From IMG/VR virus record IMGVR_UViG_3300036819_000331, positions 1 to 64,000 of that record: a stretch of 64,000 bases of DNA, one strand, 5' to 3'. Position 1 is the stretch's first letter. Each line of letters starts with the position of its first letter. The stretch comes from a virus. The translations under genes and the position numbers were made by a program. The notes beneath the pieces are model-generated. The model had not been told where the DNA came from and searched no databases. It was given only the letters and a program-made list of their open reading frames with translations. Shown here one piece after another: positions 13,801 to 41,111 of this stretch.

Positions 13801-16800
13801 TTACAAAGCAAACGTGGTGGGGTGTGCATTTAACTTCCCCACGAAGCCAGCCATGATCGGTTTTTCAGTCGCTTCGGAATTCTCGGCAACTACCTGCGCC
13901 TCATGCTTATCCAAATCGAGCGCAGCATTGAGCTGCGCCTGCTTGCCGAGTAATTCCTTTAACCGCGCTTCATGCTCAAACTTCCGGTCTAGCTGCCCCT
14001 TGTAATCCGCCAATGCCTTTTCCTGCCGCTCGATCTCACGCTGCTCTTCCTCGGCCTTACGATCAAGGCCCCGAAGTACGCTATCGATGCTTGCGATTGT
14101 TCCCTGTGGGCTTGCCGGATTGAGATTGGCCTGATACGTTTCCTTGCCCCGGACGAACAGATCGGGCTCGCCGTCCTTATAGGCACTTCCCCGGCTGAGG
14201 ATCTCGAAGCCCTTGTAATGGCCGCGCACCTTCAGCGTCTTATCGTCCTTCCATGACATGACGACTGTGTTCAGGGCATTACCGGCGTTCTCGCGCGCAC
14301 CCTTACCTGAGAATTCCCGATTGCCAACCTTCATCGTGAATTCTTCTTCCCCGTGGGCATCCCGCGTGACGATATCGGATGTGAGGGCCGCGTGGTACTT
14401 CCGGTCGCGCTCAATCCGCTCCGGGAGTGCCTTCAGTTCCCAGCGGATATTGTGCTGCTGGTTGATATGGGAGGCGCGGAGCTGGTCGAGCTTGCGGATT
14501 TCGGTATCGACCTTGACCTTTTCCATTACCGCCGGGTTGCCTGAAGCAATCGCCTTGATCTCCGCATAGGTGAGCGCGCCGCCTTCGAGGTCTTCTGCCT
14601 GGCGAACGGTCACGCTACCGTTCATTACCTGATTGATAAACCTCGCTTTATTTTCCAAACATTGCCACATATATGCATCGAAACTGCCTTCGGTGACGTA
14701 GCGGTGGATGTGGACGCTGGGGTTCTCATTGCCCTGCCGAAGTATCCTGCCTTCACGTTGCTCAATGTCGCGCGGCCTCCATGGCGCGTCGAGATGATGA
14801 AGGGCCACGAGCCTTTTCTGGACGTTCGTCCCGGCGCCCATTTTCTCGGTGGACCCAAGAAGGATACGGACTCGCCCGGCATTGACAGAGTCGAACAGCG
14901 TCTTCTTCTGAATATCCGTGTCGGCATCATGGATATAGGCGATCTCCTTCTCGGGAATGCCGCGCTCAAGCAACTTGCCGCGGATTTCATCATAGACGTT
15001 GAACTTATCGGGGTTGGGTGTCGAGACGTCGCAGAACACCAGCTGCGTGGTGCGTTTGTCTTTCCCCTGCTCCCACGTGCGGTAAACCTGCTCCACGGCG
15101 CGGCTCAGCTTGGTATCGCCTTCGGTCTCCGCATAGGGGTTTACCAACCGCATATCCAGCGCGGCCTTCCGGCCGTCGCCGGTAATCTTCAGCATGTTGT
15201 CCCGGCGGGGATCAACGCCGCCGCCTTTTAGCTTCTGTGCGCGTTCCACCAGCGTCCCGACAAACTCTTTCAGTTCGGGTGATGCCGGCGATGCCATGAT
15301 GTGCGGTTTTCCTCCGTCGATCTCCGGCCGCGGCAGGTGCAGCATGTCCGCCGTCTGTACATCCGCGAAGCTGCGGAACATCGAGAGCAGCTCGGGCAGG
15401 TTGACGAATTTCGCGAACCGGGTATGCATTCTGTACCCGGAGCCGTCCGGTGCAAGTTCGAGCGCGGTCACGGCCTCCCCGAAGTTGGCTGCCCATGCGT
15501 CGAAGTGCTCCACGCCTGCGGCGGCGAGCGACAACGGCGCGAGGTAGCGCTGAAGCGTGTACATCTCGGCCATGGTGTTCGATATCGGCGTGCCGGTCGC
15601 GAAGACCGTACCGCCGCCATGCTCGGCGAGGTATTGCGTCTTCAGGTACATGTCGAGGGCGCGGTTGCTTTCGGTATTCGGCAAACCGGCGATTCGGTTC
15701 ATTTTACTTACGAATCCGAGGTTCTTAAAAAGATCCGACTCATCACAGAAAATTCTATCCACGCCCAGTTGCTCGAAGCTCACGGCATCATCCTTCCGCT
15801 CGCGGTCCGCGCGCTCCTTGAGCTTCGTGGTGAGGCGCTTCTTTGCTTTTTCCAGTTCCTTCACGATGCGCCGGTTGTCGCCTTTCTCGGCTTTCGCCTC
15901 ATAAATCGCCGCTTCGAGCTGGTCCACCTGCTTGTCCACGAAGTGTTTGAAGGTCTCATCGGAGACGGGGAGCTTTTCAAATGAGCTGTGCGAGACGATG
16001 ACGGCGTCGTAATTGCCAGTCGCAATGCGCGCCATAGCCTTCTGCCGATTGCCTCCTGCAAAGGCATCCTTTCCTGCGACGAAGATGTTCGCCTGAGGGT
16101 ATAGCGCGAGGAACGCCGCGCCCCACTGCTCGACCAGATGGTTGGGAACGACGATCATCGGTTTGTGCGCGAGGCCGAGGCGCTTCAGTTCCATGGTGGC
16201 GGCGGCCATGATCGCCGTCTTTCCGGCACCGACGCAATGTGCCAGCAAGGTATTGTCGTTCTGAAGAATCCTCCAGACCGCGTCTTTCTGATGCTTGTCG
16301 AGATCATTCTTCCTCAGCATTGAGCGGTTCATGCCGGGAAACGTCAGGTGTGAGCCGTCGTAAGTCCGCAGGCGGATATTGTTGAAAGTGTCGTTGTAAG
16401 AGCGCGCAAGCCTGTGCGCGCGATTCTCGTCCTGCCAAATCCACTCGCTGAATTTGTCTTTCAGCTTCTGCTGTGCTTCCCGAGCGGCGATGGTCTCTTG
16501 TTGGTTCACCACGCGGCTGTCATCCGGCATCACGTCGTAAATCGTAGGCGTGCGGCCGTTGAGGGCATCATCGATAAGGCTGATTGCTGTTGCGCGCGGA
16601 ACGCCGTGGGTGGTGGTGTTGGCAACGCTGTATTTTGCCTCGTAGTCGGCATCGACCGCCCAACTGGCGATGGCACCGGAGTGGCTTACTCTGATGCCGG
16701 GGACAGAGACTCCCAGCGTCTCGCTGATGAAATCCCGAACGTCAGCCGCCGGTATCCATGACGATCCGAGCCGGGCGCTGATGTCTCCGGGCAGGAGATC

Positions 16801-19080
16801 GGCGGGCTGAACGGCTTTCAGCGCCTCGACATTGTGACTGTAGGACCGGTCGAGCGCCGCTGCGGCTTCGGCCGTTTTCAGCTTGGCCCTGACATTGCCG
16901 CTCAGGTAGCGGTCGGCGGTTTCCCAATCACCTTCGGGGTTGCGGTACACCATGCCGTCGAGTTCCTGCTGCATCTGCCTTGCGGTGCGGCCAGTAAGCG
17001 ACGCCATGCGCGTCCAGTCGATGCCGCCGGTTTCATTGAGGGAGATCGCCAGCGCCTCAGCAGCGGTGTCCACATGCTCTGTCGGTTTATGCTTCTCCAG
17101 CGTGCGCCGCTCGAAGATGGCAGTCTTAGTTGCGCGCTTATGCTCGGCGTCGTAATTCTCAAGGGAGAGGAGGAGGGGCTGATCGGGATCTCCGCTAAAG
17201 GCCCGGAGGTTCTCACGAGAGGAGAGGGGGCCGTTATTGCGTGCGAAGCGGTCGTAAATCTGATTGAGGAGTTGCCTGGCTTCCGTGATGCTGTGTTCCG
17301 GGGAGTCTTCCAGCTGCGTTCGAAACACCAGACGGACGGCATCGCGAACCGCCATCATTCCCCTGACTCGCTCGGCGGCGGAAGATGAAAGGGACGTGGG
17401 CTCGAAGCTGTCGCCGTTGCGGGTGACGATAGCCCCGTCTCGGATCGCATAGGCTCCGTCCTTGATACCGGTGAAGGCCTCGGCATCGAGGATTTGCTTC
17501 GGGGGCGGGCGCTCGCGGTCCCTCGGGACATATGCGCCGTCGGGCAGCCTGTGGATGGCGCGCGCAAGCAGCTCCGGCGTGAGCAGTCCCTCCAGTGTCG
17601 GCTCTGCGCCGCGGTACATCGTGCCTACGAGCTTCATCTTGCCGAGCATCATCTCGGGGTGGTGTGCGAAGTATTCGTTTACAGCGATCGGGCCATCCGG
17701 GCTATCGATAGTTTCAAGGTGCTGCCACGCCTCTCCTGAAGGTTGTGCGCCGGGCGCACGCTTGCGAAGGAACAGGATATCGGTGGTGACCTCCGTGCCG
17801 GCGTTGACTTTGAACGCGGTATTGGGAAGTCGGATTGCGCCAAGCAGGTCCGCCTGCTCGCCCAGGTGCCGCCGAATGGTGTCGTTCTCTTTATCCATGG
17901 TGTAGCGGCTGGTGATCAGCGCCATGACACCGCCGGGCCGGGTTTTTTCCAGCGACTTGGCGAAGAAATAATCGTGGATCGCCCGCGTGAGACCGTGCTT
18001 CATCTTCGGGTCGTGGACAGCGTAATCGCCGAATGGCACATTGCCAACAACAGCGTCGAAGAAATTGTCCGGCAGAGGCGTTTCCTCGAAGCCCTTCTGA
18101 AATATCGAAGAATCCGGATAGAGCTTTTTCGCGATGCGGGCGGTGATGGAATCAAGTTCCACGCCGGTCCGGTGACCGCCTGCCATTGACTCGGGCATGA
18201 GGCCGAAGAAATTCCCTACCCCCATCGCTGGTTCCAGAATCTGCGCTCCGTTCCCGACCCCCATGCGCTGCAGACCGTCCCAGATCGCGGAGATGACCAC
18301 GGGCGACGTGAAATGCGCGTTGGGTGTGGAAGCGCGCGCAGCTTCGTATTCGTCGTCCGTGAGGATCTTGCGCAGCTCTTCGGCCGGTTTGTCCCACTCC
18401 TCACGGCGACGGTAATTCGATTCGAATATGCCGGGCATGCCGCCCCATCCCACATATCGTGCGAGGACGCCTTTCTCTGTCTCGGTAGCGTCGCGGTTTT
18501 CGGCTTCGAGCGCCTTCAGGAGCCTGATGGCTTCGATGTTCCCGCGCGCCTTCTCATGGAGGCTACCCACCCCGATTCTGTGCTCTGAGGTGATTCGGAA
18601 ATCGCGGGAGGGCTGCTCGGGCTCGTCGATGACGACTCTTCCGGCGGCAGGAACTCGTCCAGCGCCAGCTCCCACGCCTTGTGATATTCCAGTTTCCGCA
18701 CCGATACCAGCTCGTACAGGAAGCTGCTGAATTGCTCCGCCGTCTGCTCCAGCTCCGTCTCCAGCCGGTTTTGCAGCAGGAGTTGCCGGAACATAGTCGG
18801 GTGGTAAGTCTCCCAGTGCACCAAAATCAAGCTGCTCAGGCGGTCGCGGTCGGGCATGATGTTCCCCGGATTTACGCACCGGCGCAACTGGTGCGGGTGT
18901 ATCTATAGGAGCTTCGGAGAAAAGATCAAGCTGGTTTCGGTAGTCGTAAGGGACTGCCGTCTTGGGCTTGGGATTCTTGAACCATGTCGGCAATGCCATG
19001 ATCTCTCTCGTGCTGGTTGCGCTGGAGAGTGTATGAATATTGCGCGCATTTGCAAGCCCCGGACTTCGGTTTGCGGACAT
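13801..19080 (-). CDS. Large DNA methyltransferase-SNF2 helicase fusion (DarB-like, conjugative-element type)
   Basis: ILEPAMGVGNF and GNVPF (MTase); AHCVGAGKT, DESD, ATGTP, GTNVQ, PWRPRDIEQREGRILRQGN (SF2 motifs); RBS AAGGAGG before ATG 19080. Confidence 0.9.
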   Translation of the reverse strand: MSANRSPGLANARNIHTLSSATSTREIMALPTWFKNPKPKTAVPYDYRNQLDLFSEAPIDTPAPVAPVRKSGEHHARPRPPEQLDFGALGDLPPDYVPATPAAKPAGDGAGADGGAIQQLPVRAGIGAETGISQGVGAGAGRVPAAGRVVIDEPEQPSRDFRITSEHRIGVGSLHEKARGNIEAIRLLKALEAENRDATETEKGVLARYVGWGGMPGIFESNYRRREEWDKPAEELRKILTDDEYEAARASTPNAHFTSPVVISAIWDGLQRMGVGNGAQILEPAMGVGNFFGLMPESMAGGHRTGVELDSITARIAKKLYPDSSIFQKGFEETPLPDNFFDAVVGNVPFGDYAVHDPKMKHGLTRAIHDYFFAKSLEKTRPGGVMALITSRYTMDKENDTIRRHLGEQADLLGAIRLPNTAFKVNAGTEVTTDILFLRKRAPGAQPSGEAWQHLETIDSPDGPIAVNEYFAHHPEMMLGKMKLVGTMYRGAEPTLEGLLTPELLARAIHRLPDGAYVPRDRERPPPKQILDAEAFTGIKDGAYAIRDGAIVTRNGDSFEPTSLSSSAAERVRGMMAVRDAVRLVFRTQLEDSPEHSITEARQLLNQIYDRFARNNGPLSSRENLRAFSGDPDQPLLLSLENYDAEHKRATKTAIFERRTLEKHKPTEHVDTAAEALAISLNETGGIDWTRMASLTGRTARQMQQELDGMVYRNPEGDWETADRYLSGNVRAKLKTAEAAAALDRSYSHNVEALKAVQPADLLPGDISARLGSSWIPAADVRDFISETLGVSVPGIRVSHSGAIASWAVDADYEAKYSVANTTTHGVPRATAISLIDDALNGRTPTIYDVMPDDSRVVNQQETIAAREAQQKLKDKFSEWIWQDENRAHRLARSYNDTFNNIRLRTYDGSHLTFPGMNRSMLRKNDLDKHQKDAVWRILQNDNTLLAHCVGAGKTAIMAAATMELKRLGLAHKPMIVVPNHLVEQWGAAFLALYPQANIFVAGKDAFAGGNRQKAMARIATGNYDAVIVSHSSFEKLPVSDETFKHFVDKQVDQLEAAIYEAKAEKGDNRRIVKELEKAKKRLTTKLKERADRERKDDAVSFEQLGVDRIFCDESDLFKNLGFVSKMNRIAGLPNTESNRALDMYLKTQYLAEHGGGTVFATGTPISNTMAEMYTLQRYLAPLSLAAAGVEHFDAWAANFGEAVTALELAPDGSGYRMHTRFAKFVNLPELLSMFRSFADVQTADMLHLPRPEIDGGKPHIMASPASPELKEFVGTLVERAQKLKGGGVDPRRDNMLKITGDGRKAALDMRLVNPYAETEGDTKLSRAVEQVYRTWEQGKDKRTTQLVFCDVSTPNPDKFNVYDEIRGKLLERGIPEKEIAYIHDADTDIQKKTLFDSVNAGRVRILLGSTEKMGAGTNVQKRLVALHHLDAPWRPRDIEQREGRILRQGNENPSVHIHRYVTEGSFDAYMWQCLENKARFINQVMNGSVTVRQAEDLEGGALTYAEIKAIASGNPAVMEKVKVDTEIRKLDQLRASHINQQHNIRWELKALPERIERDRKYHAALTSDIVTRDAHGEEEFTMKVGNREFSGKGARENAGNALNTVVMSWKDDKTLKVRGHYKGFEILSRGSAYKDGEPDLFVRGKETYQANLNPASPQGTIASIDSVLRGLDRKAEEEQREIERQEKALADYKGQLDRKFEHEARLKELLGKQAQLNAALDLDKHEAQVVAENSEATEKPIMAGFVGKLNAHPTTFAL
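18516..18857 (-). CDS. Overprinted TnpV-like protein in an alternative frame of the helicase 5' region
   Basis: GGGGA RBS; amphipathic HWETYHPTMFRQL...LETELEQTAEQ...AWELALDEFL pattern. Confidence 0.55.
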   Translation of the reverse strand: MPDRDRLSSLILVHWETYHPTMFRQLLLQNRLETELEQTAEQFSSFLYELVSVRKLEYHKAWELALDEFLPPEESSSTSPSSPPAISESPQSTESGWVASMRRRAGTSKPSGS

Positions 19081-19132
19081 GGCCGTTGCCTCCTTACTGC
19101 GTTGTGGCAAGGCCAACACAGCCTCGCTTCAG

Positions 19133-19271: not shown

Positions 19272-20744
19272 CTAATTCCCCACCGCCAGATAAAGCGTCT
19301 GCGTACCGCTGAATCCTCCAAGGGTGAACGTCACCGGCACGAAGTCGCTGGCCGCCACATTGGGAACCACCACGTTGAACTGATAGAGCCCGACATAGCC
19401 CGGAGCCAGACCCTGATAGGAAAGCACTGCGGGCATCCCGCCAATCGAGAGCTGAAGGGAATCTGCCAGCATATTGCTCTGCTCCGCTATCTGCCCTGCC
19501 GGGATACTCGGCGTCACGGGCCCAAAGCCGACGCCATACAGGATGATGGTTTGCCCCGGCGTAACGCGCTGGGAAGGAACGCCCGAGAGCGTTCCGGGCG
19601 GCAGAACGTAGGTAGCCTCGTCCGTAAAGAGTGCAACGAGATACTGCTTTCCACTGACCACGAAAGACGACGGCGCCAGAAATCCGGGCTCGGTGGCATT
19701 GACCGTAATCGGGAAGTTGGCGCTGGTTTCCTGCCCACTCGAGACCGTTATCTGTTGCTGGCCGGGAGTGATATTCGACGGCACCTGTACGTTGACCTGC
19801 GTCTGGCTTACATAGTCGATAAATGCTGGTATGCCGCCGATCATCACCGTCGTCCCGCTGAGGGAAGTCGGGGCATTCACTCCGTTGAAGTCGGCGGCGG
19901 TCCATGAGCGTGTCGTGGATCCGAGGTTCGATCCGTAGATCTCAACCCATGATCCCGGCGCGATGGATGAAAATCCACCGAATCCGCTGGCGCTGATAAT
20001 TCCGCTGAATGCCGGGACGGATTTGCACTCCCCGGCGCTTCCGGCGTTGTAGATCGATAGCAGTTCGGTCGCGGACAGTGCGCGGTTAAACGCCTGCACC
20101 TCGTCAATCACGCCGTTCCACGTCCTGGGGAAATTGGGGAAGAGACTACCCGAGCCCCCAAAATACCATCCTGTGGAGGAATAGGAGACTGTCGTTGTTT
20201 GGGCCAGAGAGGCCTCAAGCACGCCGTCGACAAATAATCGAAACGCCGCGCCATCGTAGGTCGCGGCTACGGAGTAAAAGCTGCCCGGTGCGAATGTGTC
20301 CTTGGACGTTACATACCCCGCGGATGTGGTGATGTTGCCGAAAATGAAAACAAAGCGATCCGTCATAGCGCTCCAAGTAACGGAGACTGAATCGGTGTAC
20401 TGATTGACATTGTTGGCGACGATGAGGCTTCCGAAGGTGTCGTCATTCGGACCGGCCCCCTCCGGCTTAACCCACGCCGCCCACGTAAATTGCTGGTTGG
20501 CGAGGCTGGCCGCCGAAGGAATGAGAACGTACCCCTTCGGCGTGAACGTCATTCCGTCGAGCACCTCGCCGGGAACAAGGCTCACTCCGGTGACCGTTGA
20601 AGGGTTGTTTCCGCCGACAAGGTCGTTTTCGTTGGTATCGCCGGTCCACCAGCCGACGAGACCGGAGGGCGGAGCAAGGCAACCTGAGGCGGCCATAGCC
20701 GGGAAAGTTGCCAGTAGAAGAAGCGGGAGAATCTTGATCGCCAT
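19272..20744 (-). CDS. Secreted LamG/concanavalin-like protein with Solibacter-type C-terminal domain (TIGR03437-like)
   Basis: Signal peptide; CLAPPSGLVGWW...GVIDEVQAFNRALS (LamG); IAPGSWVEIYGSNL...YVSQTQVNVQVP...GLAPGYVGLYQFNVVVP. Confidence 0.85.
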   Translation of the reverse strand: MAIKILPLLLLATFPAMAASGCLAPPSGLVGWWTGDTNENDLVGGNNPSTVTGVSLVPGEVLDGMTFTPKGYVLIPSAASLANQQFTWAAWVKPEGAGPNDDTFGSLIVANNVNQYTDSVSVTWSAMTDRFVFIFGNITTSAGYVTSKDTFAPGSFYSVAATYDGAAFRLFVDGVLEASLAQTTTVSYSSTGWYFGGSGSLFPNFPRTWNGVIDEVQAFNRALSATELLSIYNAGSAGECKSVPAFSGIISASGFGGFSSIAPGSWVEIYGSNLGSTTRSWTAADFNGVNAPTSLSGTTVMIGGIPAFIDYVSQTQVNVQVPSNITPGQQQITVSSGQETSANFPITVNATEPGFLAPSSFVVSGKQYLVALFTDEATYVLPPGTLSGVPSQRVTPGQTIILYGVGFGPVTPSIPAGQIAEQSNMLADSLQLSIGGMPAVLSYQGLAPGYVGLYQFNVVVPNVAASDFVPVTFTLGGFSGTQTLYLAVGN

Positions 20745-20837
20745 GGATCGGATCATCCCACAAGTGGCCTTAAAACGGCAACTATTAGCCGCATATAGGC
20801 CTAAGCGCTTCATTTATTTGAGCTTAGGCCGCCAGAC

Positions 20838-21095
20838 GTGGTAGCTTTTCGCTTGATCGTCATAACGGGCAGGCACATACGGGCGGCAAGGGCGCTCTTG
20901 GGGTGGGCGCAAAGTGAGCTTGCACGAAAGTCCAAAGTGGCCCTTCGGACAATTCGCAGGATGGAGGGCTTCGACGATGCCGTGGGCGCGCGAACGGACA
21001 CCTTGACGAAAATCGTAACGACGCTGGAAAAGGCTGGTATCGAATTCTTCGATGATGCAGGCCCAGGTGTGAAGCTGCGTCAATCAAAGAAGTAG
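20838..21095 (+). CDS. XRE-family HTH regulator
   Basis: IRAARALLGWAQSELA...LEKAGIEFF..GPGVKLR; 9-bp inverted repeat ggcctaagc/gcttaggcc at 20798-20830 upstream. Confidence 0.85.
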   Translation: MVAFRLIVITGRHIRAARALLGWAQSELARKSKVALRTIRRMEGFDDAVGARTDTLTKIVTTLEKAGIEFFDDAGPGVKLRQSKK

Positions 21096-21179
21096 TGCCA
21101 TAGCGTCATGGCACGCCGTCATGACAAAAAAGGAGCCGCCAGTTCCCCCAGCGGCCCCCTCTGCGGTTCCGCCTCGTGA

Positions 21180-21536
21180 TTAGCGGCCGCGCCGCTGCCG
21201 TTTCTCTTCCTGAAGCTCGATGATGCGCGTGGCGGCGGTGTCGGCGACCTTCGCGAGCGCAAGCACGTCACCGGGGCCGTAGCTGTGCGATGTCTGCCAC
21301 TGGTTGTCCTTATCGAGGTAGCGGCGCTGGAACGTCACGTTGAAGAAATCGCCCTTCTCCGTGGGGTTATTCCAGATTGTCGCTTCGACGCCCTGGTAGC
21401 GGACGTTTCCGACGGGTTTGCTGCCGGGCTTCTGGTCTGTGTTTTCGTCGCCGGTATCGGCGCGCTGAGCGTTGCTTACCATGTTTTCCTCCATTGGGTT
21501 GTTGTTGGCGGGCGCATTATAGGAGGGGAGATACAA
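21180..21536 (-). CDS. Conserved mobile-element protein (possibly ssDNA-binding)
   Basis: VEATIWNN..KGDFFNVTFQRRYLDKDNQWQTSHSY pattern; true start may be 21482. Confidence 0.6.
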   Translation of the reverse strand: MYLPSYNAPANNNPMEENMVSNAQRADTGDENTDQKPGSKPVGNVRYQGVEATIWNNPTEKGDFFNVTFQRRYLDKDNQWQTSHSYGPGDVLALAKVADTAATRIIELQEEKRQRRGR

Positions 21537-22804: not shown

Positions 22805-24604
22805 CTAAGCGCGGCTGCGCCCGCGGTTTCTGTCGACAAACTCTGCCGCATTCCGGGCCGTCACCAGAGGATAGCCAATATCGCCCCGCTCAACATTCTT
22901 TCGGGCTTTTTCGCTTACCTCTTCCAGCTTCGCCGCAGTGTCCTCGATGGAATGTCCACCGGTTATGCTGATCATGCAATATGACAGGTCTGCGTGGCTG
23001 CGATCGGGCGATCCGTCCTTCTTCTTGCGGGACCGCAGAAGGCAAATGTCGTAGGACGGCCACGGGTGAATCTCCCCAAGATTCACGGAAACACGCCGGG
23101 GGGCTTTGCGGCCGATATTGATGTCGGTCGCAAGAGGGCGCTCGGCCTCCGCCAGCAAGCCCAACTCCGCCAATCGTTCCGCCGTCATCGCGCGTCCCGG
23201 CACGCCGTACACAATGCCCACTGTCGGGTACTCCGGCGCATATTTCACCTTGAAGTTGGCCGTCCCCGCAAGCCTTACCGCACCCGACGCCGATTTATCG
23301 ACATCTCCCACGGCCTTCCTCACCCGCCGGATGAATCCTTTGCTTTCTGCCTTTTCCACACCGGACACCGCAAGCCACGCCTGATGATTGCCAGGGCTGG
23401 TGGCAACCATGAGGAAAGCAGCCGGGCGGACTCGGTCCAGTTGCTCCGCGCTGAGATCGTCGAGCTGGACGAACACCACATCCGGTCCGGTCGGCCTGAC
23501 GATCAGATTCTCACCGGCCATGACGGTTTCACCGCTCGCGAGCTTATGCGGGTTTCGGGCGGCGGCAGTCCGAACCATCGCCGGGAGCTTGTCGCGCAGC
23601 TCAACGGCGGAATACGTTTTGCCCCAAATCAGTTTCTGCTCCACGTCGAGCTTCGTGACGACGAATGAGCGCGCGCCGACGCTTGTAAAGAGATCCAGCA
23701 TGCGTTCGGCTTCTTTGATGTTCGACGGCATCGGCATACCTCCTGATTTCTCAACCCCTCGCCCAGCCATGGGGGTTGAGAAAGCAGGAATACTGGGCAA
23801 TTCGCCCTCTGACAAGTGTGACGTAAACGCGCTTCCGTGGTTTCGCGGTTGCGTCAATGCGTCATTGCGCTCAAGGGCCACGTCTTCATCGTGCGCGAGC
23901 GTCATTGCGTCCATGCGCGCATCCGTGGCACGGCGCAATAGCGCAGACTGAATCGAGCTGGCGTACCAGCGAAATCCTGATGGGGTGCGGATGTCCATGG
24001 CGTTGATATGCATGGCGATATCGCGCAGGCTGGCACCCTCTGCCCGAAGCCGCCGCATCAGGGCCAGAGTATTCTCCGCCGGGTGGAGTTTTTCGCGAAG
24101 TTCCGCGGCGCGCGCACGCGCCTCGGCAAGCTTGGGGCCGCCCAGCTTGTGATACGTTCGCCCGGCCTTGCTCACCCGATATCCGTGGGTGGCGAGATCC
24201 CGCTTGGCCTGAGACAACGCCTCCCTGATTCGCAGCGAAATAGTCTCCCGCTCGTGCTGCGCGAAGGCGGCCAACAGGTGCAGCATCAGCTTGGTCGCAT
24301 GCGGGTTGTCGCAGCAGACGAACTCGACACCGCTCTCCATCAGGTCGGCGATGAACGCGACATTGCGGCTCAGGCGGTCCAGCTTGGCGATAACGAGCTT
24401 CGCCTTGCGCTTCTTGCACAATTCGAGTGCCGCCAGAAGCTGCGGACGGTTCTTGTGGCGCTTCCCGCTCTCGACCTCCGTAAACTCAGCCAGAAGCGGA
24501 TCGTTGCCAATAAAGCGCAGCACAACCTCTTTCTGGGCCGCGAGCCCCAATCCGCTTTCACCCTGTTGCGAAGTTGAGACACGGTAATACCCGACATGCA
24601 GCAT
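22805..24604 (-). CDS. Serine recombinase fused in frame to a RepB-type DNA primase domain
   Basis: YYRVST..QGESGLGLAAQ, LVIAKLDRLSR (serine recombinase); VQLDDL, TSPGNHQAW, VRLAGTANFK, DRSHAD (RepB'/AEP primase with helical bundle). Confidence 0.85.
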   Translation of the reverse strand: MLHVGYYRVSTSQQGESGLGLAAQKEVVLRFIGNDPLLAEFTEVESGKRHKNRPQLLAALELCKKRKAKLVIAKLDRLSRNVAFIADLMESGVEFVCCDNPHATKLMLHLLAAFAQHERETISLRIREALSQAKRDLATHGYRVSKAGRTYHKLGGPKLAEARARAAELREKLHPAENTLALMRRLRAEGASLRDIAMHINAMDIRTPSGFRWYASSIQSALLRRATDARMDAMTLAHDEDVALERNDALTQPRNHGSAFTSHLSEGELPSIPAFSTPMAGRGVEKSGGMPMPSNIKEAERMLDLFTSVGARSFVVTKLDVEQKLIWGKTYSAVELRDKLPAMVRTAAARNPHKLASGETVMAGENLIVRPTGPDVVFVQLDDLSAEQLDRVRPAAFLMVATSPGNHQAWLAVSGVEKAESKGFIRRVRKAVGDVDKSASGAVRLAGTANFKVKYAPEYPTVGIVYGVPGRAMTAERLAELGLLAEAERPLATDINIGRKAPRRVSVNLGEIHPWPSYDICLLRSRKKKDGSPDRSHADLSYCMISITGGHSIEDTAAKLEEVSEKARKNVERGDIGYPLVTARNAAEFVDRNRGRSRA

Positions 24605-24614
24605 CGTCCCGCTC

Positions 24615-24696
24615 CAAAACACCTGTTTTGAGCAGTACAGCATGAAGAAGCGTTCAACTCAATGTTGAACGAACGAAATTCGGCCGTATAATTTCG
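24615..24696. promoter_or_regulatory. Three inverted repeats upstream of the recombinase (res-like site)
   Basis: caaaaca-N2-tgttttg, cgttcaac-N5-gttgaacg, cgaaatt-N9-aatttcg. Confidence 0.45.
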
Positions 24697-24710
24697 CGCG
24701 CGTGGATTGA

Positions 24711-40065: not shown

Positions 40066-40115
40066 GTTGCACATTCTGAAACATCGCGCAATCAGAAAGT
40101 TTCATAAAATGAAAC
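40066..40115. promoter_or_regulatory. OL-like operators (two copies)
   Basis: gttgca-cattc-tgaaac (40066-40082) and gtttca-taaaa-tgaaac (40099-40115). Confidence 0.75.
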
Positions 40116-40217
40116 ATCCAAGTAACCCAAAGACTTACTCGGGTGGTCTTGTTGGCAGGCAATGAGATTGAGGGCGAATAAGTGCCGATCAGAAGGGCAA
40201 GGAGCGCATGGAGGGCG

Positions 40218-40369: not shown

Positions 40370-41017
40370 CTATGACCGACTTCTTACAAATGGCTTAATA
40401 AAGATCACTGGAGCACACCACGCCAGCTCGACGTCGGTTATAGTGTCCATGTTATAGCTCTGCAAGTCGAATCTGCCGTGGGTCTGCCCCTTGCGGACCA
40501 TCTTCAGAAGCGTGCGGCCGTCCCTCATCTGCACAACGCAAAGGCTGGCCAAGCAGTGGTCCGGCGCTCCGCCGTCATATCGCTGCGCATAGTAGACGAC
40601 GGTCCCCTCGGGCATGAACGGGAGCATCGAATTGCCTTTCACCCGGAGGGCCACGATGCCGGTTGAAAAGATGCCGGGCGGCGCTTCCACCCACTCGCAG
40701 TTGATGTATTCCTCATCGGCGGGATCAATCACCTTCGGCATAAGGGGCAGATCGTCCAGCGGGTAAACCTCGCCGCCAGCGCCGACCTCCCCGACGATTG
40801 GGATTCGCAAATCGTTCAGCAGCTCCGAAGGAGTCCAGCCGAATTTTCCGCCAAGCTTGCGCATCCATTCCTCATTCATTCCAATCTTGCCCGCTTCGAG
40901 TTTGGAAATATGCCCACGGTTCGTATTGGTTGCGTCGGCAATATCCTGCTGGGTCAAGCCCAGCGCAGTTCTCAGATGCAGCAAGTTGTTTGTATAAGGC
41001 CCTCTTGTCTTTGCCAT
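40370..41017 (-). CDS. cI: CI-like repressor (XRE HTH + S24 peptidase)
   Basis: LTQQDIADA...ISKLE; VGEVGAG; LRVKGNSM; LLK. Confidence 0.9.
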   Translation of the reverse strand: MAKTRGPYTNNLLHLRTALGLTQQDIADATNTNRGHISKLEAGKIGMNEEWMRKLGGKFGWTPSELLNDLRIPIVGEVGAGGEVYPLDDLPLMPKVIDPADEEYINCEWVEAPPGIFSTGIVALRVKGNSMLPFMPEGTVVYYAQRYDGGAPDHCLASLCVVQMRDGRTLLKMVRKGQTHGRFDLQSYNMDTITDVELAWCAPVIFIKPFVRSRS

Positions 41018-41027
41018 GCGCGGCAAG

Positions 41028-41101
41028 GTTTCACTTTCCGCAACATTATTACAGTGCATAGATTGAAACATTTTCTTGACTGAGGTTGCAAATTATGAAA
41101 C
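41028..41101. promoter_or_regulatory. OR-like operators (three copies) with a TTGACT -35-like box
   Basis: gtttca-N5-cgcaac (41028), agtgca-N5-tgaaac (41053), gttgca-N5-tgaaac (41085); TTGACT at 41076. Confidence 0.75.
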
Positions 41102-41111
41102 ATCAATACCC

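What the first reader, a model, noticed from the sequence alone, without database searches (positions are those of the whole stretch)
22805..24604. Serine recombinase-RepB primase fusion with internal RBS and hairpin
Seen: one frame joins a serine recombinase to a RepB'-like primase. An internal AGGAGGT RBS precedes MPMPSNIKE (ATG about 23737). Directly upstream of that RBS is a perfect 12-bp inverted repeat, tttctcaacccc-N13-ggggttgagaaa (23747-23783). Established: RSF1010 RepB' is made both alone and fused to the MobA relaxase, and primes at ssi hairpins. Inference: an analogous two-product design in which a recombinase replaces the relaxase, possibly coupling excision/resolution to priming of a small integrative element. 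The hairpin could be its priming site.
Basis: partly seen in the sequence, partly recalled or inferred. Interest (0 to 1): 0.7.

Follow-up and report, generated by a model that had tools for sequence, protein, structure and literature searches.

The report
Recombinase–primase fusion hiding an inner gene
A mobile element in a soil bacterium joins a serine recombinase to a RepB'-like DNA primase in one reading frame, and the floppy linker between them still carries the primase gene's own start signals, so the cell probably makes both the fused protein and a free primase.

Summary
The ORF, both domains, the perfect 12-bp inverted repeat (23747-23783), AGGAGG (23739-23744) and the two ATGs (23737, 23731) are all present.

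The fusion is not a one-off. 52 protein clusters carry both Pfam domains, and 41 of 41 fused proteins examined keep a Met at the internal start.

The 65-residue linker is predicted to be disordered. Its amino acids vary, but its synonymous sites are the most conserved in the gene. At DNA level it reads as a promoter-like TTGnnn-17-TATTCC, a covarying hairpin whose arms pair an anti-SD with the SD, then the SD and ATG.

Stand-alone primases of the same family start at that Met, behind an equivalent SD-sequestering hairpin. One related genome has TGA where fused relatives have GGA, which splits the gene at exactly that point.

Best reading: a nested two-product gene, analogous to RSF1010 MobA/RepB', with the hairpin acting as an mRNA translational element rather than a priming site.

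The recombinase is probably not the integrase. The gene lies inside a 107.5-kb element integrated in tRNA-Ser, which has its own tyrosine integrase and 69-bp att repeats.

I found no paper describing this architecture. No expression data exist.

The parts
22805..24604 (-). Fused gene: serine recombinase, linker, RepB'-like primase. 599 aa from M14; the frame is open from 24643.
23924..24598 (-). Recombinase module (res 16-240): catalytic domain with the RVS motif (S23) and D89/R90/R93, the E-helix, and a small helical DNA-binding domain. No zinc ribbon or coiled coil.
   Evidence: Pfam; invariant residues; AlphaFold; Foldseek hits to resolvases and serine integrases
23732..23923 (-). Linker (res 241-304). 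Predicted disordered and variable in length and residues, but kept open in frame. Its 3' half is under nucleotide-level constraint.
   Evidence: pLDDT <50. Same-codon fraction 0.71 against a mean of 0.43 (maximum 0.61 over 497 control blocks). 0 in-frame stops in the six fused genes (one, the TGA at the SD, in split L244), against 0-6 in the other frames.
23787..23824 (-). Promoter-like block inside the ORF: ACGTC (23824-23820), TTGTCA (23815-23810), a 17-nt spacer, TATTCC (23792-23787). It encodes the conserved 'TSxL' and 'IP'.
   Evidence: The same arrangement with exactly 17-nt spacing is present in 12 of 14 related leaders, including a non-coding one (L170:390-475). The sigma-70 scan does not call it because the last base of the -10 is C.
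23741..23789 (-). Leader hairpin. Core 12-bp inverted repeat 23747-23783. The outer helix UCCUG:CAGGA pairs an anti-SD with the SD. The apical loop is CAUGGCUGGGCGA.
   Evidence: RNAalifold gives 15 pairs, 10 of them compensatory. 91% paired against 75% shuffled, 0/500. CM R1 scores 77 bits and finds a single copy.
23739..23744 (-). Internal Shine-Dalgarno AGGAGG
23729..23737 (-). Internal start codons M303 (1 nt after the SD) and M305 (7 nt after the SD, the likely start). The product would be about 308 aa.
   Evidence: A Met at this position in 41/41 fused proteins. Stand-alone primases start here. TGA split in G307.
23144..23719 (-). Primase catalytic (AEP) domain, res 309-500. D395/D396, Q421, D449 and R457 align with RepB' D77/D78, the motif II Gln, D134 and R145.
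   Evidence: roles of the residues from PMC8567376 and PMC5862659
22823..23053 (-). Helix-bundle domain, res 531-607, after a second disordered linker (504-522), as in RepB'
24619..24705 (-). Conserved non-coding block upstream of the fused gene. It contains the inverted repeat CGTTCAAC-N5-GTTGAACG and, on the + strand, TTGAAC-16-TATAAT (24665-24692). Candidate control region or res-like site.
   Evidence: Found before every fused gene and nowhere else in the genome or in the other loci

Best explanation
The gene encodes a resolvase-type serine recombinase fused through a disordered linker to a catalytically intact RepB'-like primase (catalytic domain plus helix bundle).

The linker is the primase cistron's own 5' control region read in frame. 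It holds a promoter-like TTGnnn-17-TATTCC, a stem-loop whose 5' arm (anti-SD) pairs with the Shine-Dalgarno sequence, then AGGAGG and ATG.

Two proteins are therefore probably made: a fusion of about 66 kDa and a free primase of about 34 kDa starting at M305. This is the design of RSF1010 MobA/RepB', with a recombinase in place of the relaxase. The hairpin acts on the mRNA to limit or couple internal initiation. It could be opened by ribosomes translating the recombinase part, by processing, or by a protein.

The recombinase is most likely a resolvase-like accessory enzyme of the 107.5-kb element, not its integrase.

Shown: the architecture, conservation of the fusion, nucleotide-level constraint, hairpin covariation, homology of the internal start to stand-alone starts, and the element's boundaries. 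Inferred: that both products are made, that the hairpin acts as RNA, and the role of the recombinase.
For: - Conserved fusion: 52 clusters carry PF00239 and PF16793 together at 39-64% identity. 0 in-frame stops in the linkers of the six fused genes (one, the TGA at the SD, in split L244), against 0-6 in the other frames.
- Internal start: a Met in 41/41 fused proteins, 8-9 residues (some also 11) before the RML motif, preceded by EG/GG codons that spell the SD.
- Stand-alone relatives: 72 of 80 primase loci are stand-alone. Several begin at exactly the homologous Met. They have their own SD-sequestering hairpin behind TTGCAT-17-TATCGT.
- Natural split: G307 has GAA TGA ATG where fused relatives have GAA GGA ATG.
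- Synonymous constraint peaks in the linker: 0.71 against 0.43, above all 497 control blocks. The loop GGGCGA is kept even in L164, where a 1-nt indel shifts the frame.
- Hairpin: 10 of 15 pairs compensatory; 91% paired against 75% shuffled and 50-57% slid. The U.G wobbles in the anti-SD:SD helix work only on the sense strand.
- Tree: the fused state sits in two well-supported clades with stand-alone forms nested inside; at least 5 changes are forced. The primase cistron therefore survives gain or loss of the recombinase.
- Model: the linker 241-305 is disordered and the primase domain starts at 309.
- Element: 69-bp direct repeats at the tRNA-Ser 3' end, and a tyrosine integrase 80 nt from one repeat.
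Against: - No expression data of any kind; no RNA run holds the locus.
- TATTCC lacks the conserved final T of a -10 box and is not called by the promoter scan. It also overlaps the hairpin's outer arm, so pairing alone could explain its conservation.
- In the fused-type leaders the antisense strand folds slightly better than the sense strand, so an antisense or DNA role is not excluded.
- The conserved apical loop has no explanation in a purely translational model.
- DNA was available for only about 13 fused-type leaders, several of them closely related.
- No recombination site was identified.
Confidence: 0.62

Rival explanations
1. The hairpin is a DNA single-strand initiation (ssi) site at which the RepB'-like primase primes replication.
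For: RepB' primes at hairpin-containing ssiA/ssiB (PMC8567376). The primase residues are intact. The apical loop CGCnGGGCGA is conserved at nucleotide level without a translational reason. In fused-type leaders the antisense strand folds at least as well as the sense strand.
Against: - The hairpin's 3' arm always ends in the SD, a fixed distance from the start codon, in every clade, although the stem sequences differ.
- U.G wobbles would be A.C mismatches on the other strand.
- There is one copy in 104 kb of the element, whereas RSF1010 has two on opposite strands.
- The stem of 15-19 bp with a 12-16-nt loop is much larger than the 21-nt ssiA hairpin.
Confidence: 0.12
2. Only the fusion protein is made. 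The SD, ATG and hairpin are decaying relics of a recent fusion.
For: No expression data. Internal SD-like sequences can persist for a while after a fusion.
Against: The features are kept in 41/41 fused proteins down to about 40% identity and in two separate clades. Synonymous sites there are the most constrained in the gene. Covariation shows ongoing selection for pairing. The split form in G307 implies that the internal start is used.
Confidence: 0.13
3. The recombinase moiety is the element's integrase/excisionase, coupling excision to priming.
For: A serine recombinase with an intact active site. NCBIfam's nearest models are XisF and Ccr. Gene-neighbourhood links between serine recombinases and primase-polymerases are known in SCCmec-like elements (PMC2579912, PMC7581432).
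Against: - The element is bounded by 69-bp repeats of the tRNA-Ser 3' end, with a tyrosine integrase next to one repeat.
- The fused gene lies about 36 kb inside.
- It lacks the zinc ribbon and coiled coil of large serine integrases; PF07508 is partial and below cut-off.
- The conserved downstream genes show it is internal in related elements too.
Confidence: 0.08
4. The hairpin is an RNase III-type processing site that cuts the primase mRNA out of the operon transcript. This is a variant of the main model.
For: Processing at such a site would free the SD.
Against: Stand-alone genes carry the hairpin at the very 5' end of a transcript with its own promoter-like motif, where nothing needs to be cut off. 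The stems are shorter than two helical turns in several members.
Confidence: 0.1

Closest known systems
RSF1010/R1162 mobA/repB: MobA-RepB fusion and RepB' from an in-frame internal start
   Same: A RepB'-type primase (catalytic domain, flexible linker, helix bundle; conserved DD, Q, D and R) forms the C-terminal part of a longer DNA-processing protein, with an in-frame internal SD and ATG at the domain boundary (PMC2200642, PMC8567376).
   Different: The N-terminal partner is a serine recombinase, not an HUH relaxase. Sequence identity to RepB' is only about 20%. The host is a 107.5-kb integrated element of a soil bacterium, not an IncQ plasmid. The two products have not been demonstrated here.
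RepB' family of AEP primases (Kazlauskas et al. 2018, PMC5862659)
   Same: Motif I DD, Gln instead of His in motif II, motif III Asp and motif IV Arg; associated with mobile elements.
   Different: That survey names the primase+PriCT-1 and MobA+primase organisations and mentions no recombinase fusion. The family here has no match in 50,697 phage records and only weak matches to IncQ-like plasmids.
Small serine recombinases (resolvase/invertase family) of phages and plasmids
   Same: Catalytic domain, E-helix and a short C-terminal DNA-binding domain. 45-58% identical stand-alone relatives are widespread, including in viral contigs.
   Different: No res, hix or att site was identified. It is fused to a primase. 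Identity to any annotated phage recombinase is 37% or less.
SD-sequestering leader hairpins and translational coupling in replication genes (IncB/IncI repA/repZ; T4 gp43 and gp32 operators); from general knowledge
   Same: A stem-loop occludes the RBS of a replication protein gene. Upstream translation or protein binding decides whether the RBS opens.
   Different: Here the leader lies inside an ORF and is itself translated as a protein linker. No antisense RNA, pseudoknot or binding protein has been identified.
SCCmec Ccr recombinases with the adjacent CCPol/primase-helicase operon (PMC7581432, PMC2579912)
   Same: A serine recombinase and a primase cooperate on one mobile element.
   Different: In SCCmec they are separate genes, the primase family differs, and the Ccr proteins are large serine recombinases that do the integration.

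Membership tests
Serine recombinase (Pfam Resolvase, PF00239) | Profile match above the curated cut-off | tested here: met
   90.4 bits against 23.3, residues 17-148
Serine recombinase (Pfam Resolvase, PF00239) | Catalytic Ser in the YxRVS motif, the conserved Asp/Arg cluster and the E-helix | tested here: met
   S23 in YYRVS. D89 is nearly invariant; R90 and R93 are invariant in 35 homologues. Long helix 118-153.
Serine recombinase (Pfam Resolvase, PF00239) | Recombination between defined sites | not testable with these tools
   No site identified. The repeat search gave only chance-level pairs. The candidate block 24619-24705 is single-copy.
Large serine recombinase / phage serine integrase | Full recombinase domain, zinc-ribbon domain and coiled coil C-terminal to the E-helix | tested here: not met
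   PF07508 matches only profile positions 10-51, at 18.7 bits against a cut-off of 21.1. About 85 helical residues are followed by a disordered linker and the primase.
RepB'-like AEP primase (PF16793) | Profile match above the curated cut-off, and fold like RepB' | tested here: met
   25.3 bits against 24.3. 3H20 E 4e-10; 3H25_A TM 0.70, rmsd 3.6.
RepB'-like AEP primase (PF16793) | Catalytic D77, D78, D134 and R145, and the motif II Gln | tested here: met
   D395, D396, D449, R457 and Q421 align with them and are invariant or nearly so (PMC8567376, PMC5862659)
RepB'-like AEP primase (PF16793) | C-terminal helix-bundle domain, required for primer synthesis | tested here: met
   Helices 531-607 at pLDDT >90 after a flexible linker. 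The match to full-length 3H20 covers 327 columns.
RepB'-like AEP primase (PF16793) | Primer synthesis on a specific ssDNA site | not testable with these tools
   Needs biochemistry
MobA/RepB'-type nested two-product gene | In-frame internal SD and start codon at the boundary of the primase domain | tested here: met
   AGGAGG, 7 nt, then ATG (M305). The domain starts at residue 309. Conserved in 41/41.
MobA/RepB'-type nested two-product gene | Both the long and the short protein are produced | not testable with these tools
   No RNA or protein data
MobA/RepB'-type nested two-product gene | The N-terminal partner is an HUH relaxase | tested here: not met
   The partner is a serine recombinase
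IncQ ssiA/ssiB priming sites | 40-nt site with a 21-nt hairpin, present as two copies on opposite strands of the origin | tested here: not met
   One copy in window+L001+L002. The stem-loop spans about 49 nt. Description of ssi from PMC8567376.

The most novel reading that the evidence does not exclude
The conserved apical loop (CGC-n-GGGCGA) of the leader hairpin is the primase's own recognition element. The free primase would bind its mRNA leader to shut off its own translation, and the same sequence as ssDNA could serve as its priming site. Meanwhile the recombinase moiety would tether the fused form to the conserved res-like block upstream (24619-24705). One gene would then couple initiation of replication, copy control and dimer resolution of a 107-kb hybrid element carrying phage and conjugation genes.
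Probability: 0.1. Interest if true: 0.8.

Novelty: new variant of a known kind. Interest (0 to 1): 0.55.

Why it matters
This adds a new partner, a site-specific recombinase, to the few known cases in which a plasmid-type AEP primase is made both free and fused to a DNA-processing enzyme.

It is also an unusually clear case of a protein linker whose sequence is dictated by nucleic-acid signals: a promoter-like motif, an RBS-occluding hairpin, the SD and the start codon. Such regions mislead both gene callers and disorder predictors.

The family is common in mobile elements of soil and peat Acidobacteriota-like bacteria, whose replication biology is almost unknown. The prediction can be tested directly with one tagged construct.

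Tried and rejected
Only one clade-B-type leader (L170:390-475) was seen.
- The GTDB genome scan and the IMG/VR scan with the full alignment returned only loci with one of the two domains.
- The primase has no match in INPHARED phages and only weak matches in PLSDB.
- Rfam: nothing above threshold for the hairpin.
- The sigma-70 scan does not call the internal promoter-like site.
- The search for repeats that could be recombination sites (12-42 kb) gave only chance-level pairs.
- There is no second copy of the hairpin or of the upstream block.
- The idea that the fused gene sits at the prophage end in the int position was rejected. Downstream genes (118-aa protein, HTH, LamG/TIG, 1772-aa methylase-helicase) are syntenic in related elements, and the real ends were found.
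- The 714-aa open frame around the primase in G016 (L257) is a GC-rich spurious frame, not another fusion.

Full report
**Observation.** The minus-strand ORF 22805..24643 (612 aa, P0001) most likely starts at M14 (24604).

- Pfam finds Resolvase (17-148, E 1.5e-25), a partial Recombinase domain below cut-off, and RepB_primase (370-468, 25.3 bits against 24.3).
- The C-terminal 310 aa match RSF1010 RepB' in the PDB by sequence (E about 2e-5).
- The inverted repeat tttctcaacccc-N13-ggggttgagaaa is at 23747-23783. It is unique, with none expected by chance.
- It is followed by tc-AGGAGG-t-ATG-ccg-ATG. M303 is at 23737 and M305 at 23731.
- The RNA folds at -34.3 kcal/mol, z = -3.9.

**Is the fusion real?** 52 clusters at 90% identity carry both Pfam domains, at 39-64% identity to the query and mostly from soil and peat metagenomes.

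- In seven genes with DNA, the linker has no in-frame stop in the six fused genes (split L244 has one, the TGA described below), but 0-3 and 0-6 stops in the other two frames.
- An AlphaFold model built with 35 homologues gives four parts: a recombinase module (16-240), a disordered linker (241-305, pLDDT <50), a primase catalytic domain (309-500, pLDDT >90), and a second short linker followed by a helix bundle (531-607). The last three parts are the architecture of RepB'.
- Foldseek ranks RepB' first (3H20 E 4e-10; 3H25_A TM 0.70), followed by serine integrases and resolvases.
- S23, R90 and R93 of the recombinase are conserved, with D89 nearly invariant. So are D395/D396, Q421, D449 and R457 of the primase, which correspond to RepB' D77/D78, the motif II Gln, D134 and R145 (PMC8567376, PMC5862659).
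- The recombinase lacks the zinc ribbon and coiled coil of large serine integrases.

**The linker is a gene-control region read as protein.** A metagenome scan with a primase-only alignment returned 80 loci. Of these, 72 have a stand-alone primase in an open frame of mostly 300-350 aa, 6 are fused, and a few are frameshifted or cut fused forms.

- Several stand-alone proteins begin at exactly the Met that is internal in the fusions.
- All 41 fused proteins that could be anchored have a Met 8-9 residues (some also 11) before the invariant RML motif, preceded by EG/GG codons that spell the SD.
- At DNA level every fused-type leader has the same layout: ACGTC, TTGnnn, exactly 17 nt, TA(T/C)(T/C)CC, a stem-loop, AGGAGG or GAAGGAG, then ATG (12 of 14 leaders).
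- The layout is also present in the non-coding leader L170:390-475, in front of a second, stand-alone primase.
- The conserved protein motifs of the linker (TSxL, IP-S, AGR, EG, M) are translations of these signals.
- The loop sequence GGGCGA is kept even in L164, where a 1-nt indel puts it in another frame.
- Among codon pairs with the same amino acid, 71% are the same codon in residues 266-304. The rest of the gene averages 43%, and none of 497 equally long control blocks exceeds 61%. Amino-acid identity is lowest in the same stretch.

**The hairpin.**

- RNAalifold on 13 fused-type leaders predicts 15 pairs, 10 of them with compensatory changes.
- 91% of cells are paired, against 75% in shuffles (0/500) and 50-57% when the partner is slid. 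35 cells show double changes, against 10 expected.
- The outer helix pairs CCUUCU-like anti-SD with the SD and contains U.G wobbles. These would be A.C mismatches on the other strand.
- Stand-alone primase genes of the other clades carry a different but equivalent hairpin (CUCCUUUC...GAAAGGGG-AGGGG, GTG start). It sits directly behind TTGCAT-17-TATCGT and has U.G pairs in 20-24 of 27 sequences.
- The sense strand is the more stable in 51 of 69 leaders. In the fused-type subgroup the antisense strand is slightly better.
- The covariance model finds one copy in 104 kb of the element, and Rfam has no such family.

Four things argue for an mRNA element that occludes the RBS and against an ssi site: the fixed register with SD and start codon, the wobble pairs, the single copy, and the size. 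The ssiA hairpin is 21 nt and comes with a partner, ssiB, on the other strand (PMC8567376). The conserved apical loop remains unexplained, so a protein-binding role is left open.

**Natural experiments.**

- A genome of the same family (G307, L244) has ...GCAGAA TGA ATG TTT ATG CCG where fused relatives read GAA GGA ATG. The recombinase ORF therefore stops one codon before the internal start, and the primase must be made from it.
- On a tree of 95 primase domains the fused state occupies two well-supported clades. Clade A has 26 fused and 5 stand-alone members, including the window; clade B has 14 fused. Stand-alone clades separate them, and at least 5 changes are forced.
- The primase cistron thus persists while the recombinase part comes and goes.

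**Where the gene sits.** The neighbours are phage early genes on the same strand: a PD-(D/E)XK exonuclease, RecT, a long ParB-like protein, HNH and a zinc-finger protein. There is a LexA/cI-like repressor at 40370-41071, and terminase, portal and tail genes lie to the right.

- Downstream of the fused gene are a 118-aa protein, an oppositely oriented HTH, a LamG/TIG protein and a 1772-aa methylase-helicase. These are syntenic in related fused and stand-alone loci, so the gene is internal to the element.
- Left of the window lie a TrwC relaxase, a coupling protein and a tyrosine integrase.
- A perfect 69-bp direct repeat of the 3' end of tRNA-Ser(GCU) occurs at contig positions 18349-18417 and 125860-125928, 80 nt from the integrase. 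There is no third copy, and GC content drops between the repeats.
- The element is therefore 107.5 kb, integrated by a tyrosine integrase. The serine recombinase is probably a resolvase-like accessory enzyme.
- An 85-nt block upstream of the fused gene (24619-24705) holds the inverted repeat CGTTCAAC-N5-GTTGAACG and an opposite-strand TTGAAC-16-TATAAT. It is conserved before all fused genes and occurs once in the genome. It is a candidate control or res-like site, untested.

**Comparison with what is known.** The closest functional analogue is RSF1010 mobA/repB, where the primase exists fused to the relaxase and free as RepB' (PMC2200642, PMC8567376).

- The 2018 survey of AEP primases names the primase+PriCT-1 and MobA+primase organisations for the RepB' family.
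- Four full-text searches found no description of a recombinase-primase fusion.
- Links between serine recombinases and primase-polymerases at the gene-neighbourhood level are known for SCCmec-like elements (PMC2579912, PMC7581432).
I did not test it.

**Verdict.** The two-product idea is well supported by comparative evidence but unproven. The priming-site and small-integrative-element ideas are not supported. This is a new variant of a known design, and a new domain architecture for the RepB' family.

Noticed in passing
contig positions C50:18349-125928 (window -11311 to 96268; loci L273, L001, L002): A 107.5-kb island bounded by perfect 69-bp repeats of the tRNA-Ser(GCU) 3' end. It carries a tyrosine integrase, a TrwC relaxase and a coupling protein, as well as a full set of phage head and tail genes. 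It is either a phage/mobilizable-element hybrid or two elements fused without an internal att.
   Followed up: partly
window 24619-24705: An 85-nt non-coding block conserved before every fused gene, single-copy in the genome. It contains the inverted repeat CGTTCAAC-N5-GTTGAACG and a strong opposite-strand promoter match, TTGAAC-16-TATAAT (24665-24692). Possible res-like site or divergent promoter.
   Followed up: partly
window 40066-40118 and 41085-41104: Three copies of GTTTCAnAAnATGAAACATC flank the LexA/cI-like repressor gene (40370-41071). They are likely operator sites.
   Followed up: no
L170:382-1302 and L170:6065-7075: One metagenome contig carries two paralogous RepB'-like primase genes from different clades, each behind the same type of leader hairpin.
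   Followed up: partly
window 13801-19119 (-) and L163:13971-19289: A 1772-aa methyltransferase-helicase protein of identical length is a conserved downstream neighbour in a related element. It may be a DarB-like anti-restriction protein.
   Followed up: no
window 19272-21536: A conserved module follows the primase gene in both fused and stand-alone loci: a 118-aa protein, an oppositely oriented HTH gene and a LamG/TIG surface-type protein.
   Followed up: partly
L244 (G307:C536:2839-6706): Natural split form: TGA replaces GGA one codon before the internal ATG, so the recombinase and the primase are separate, abutting genes.
   Followed up: yes
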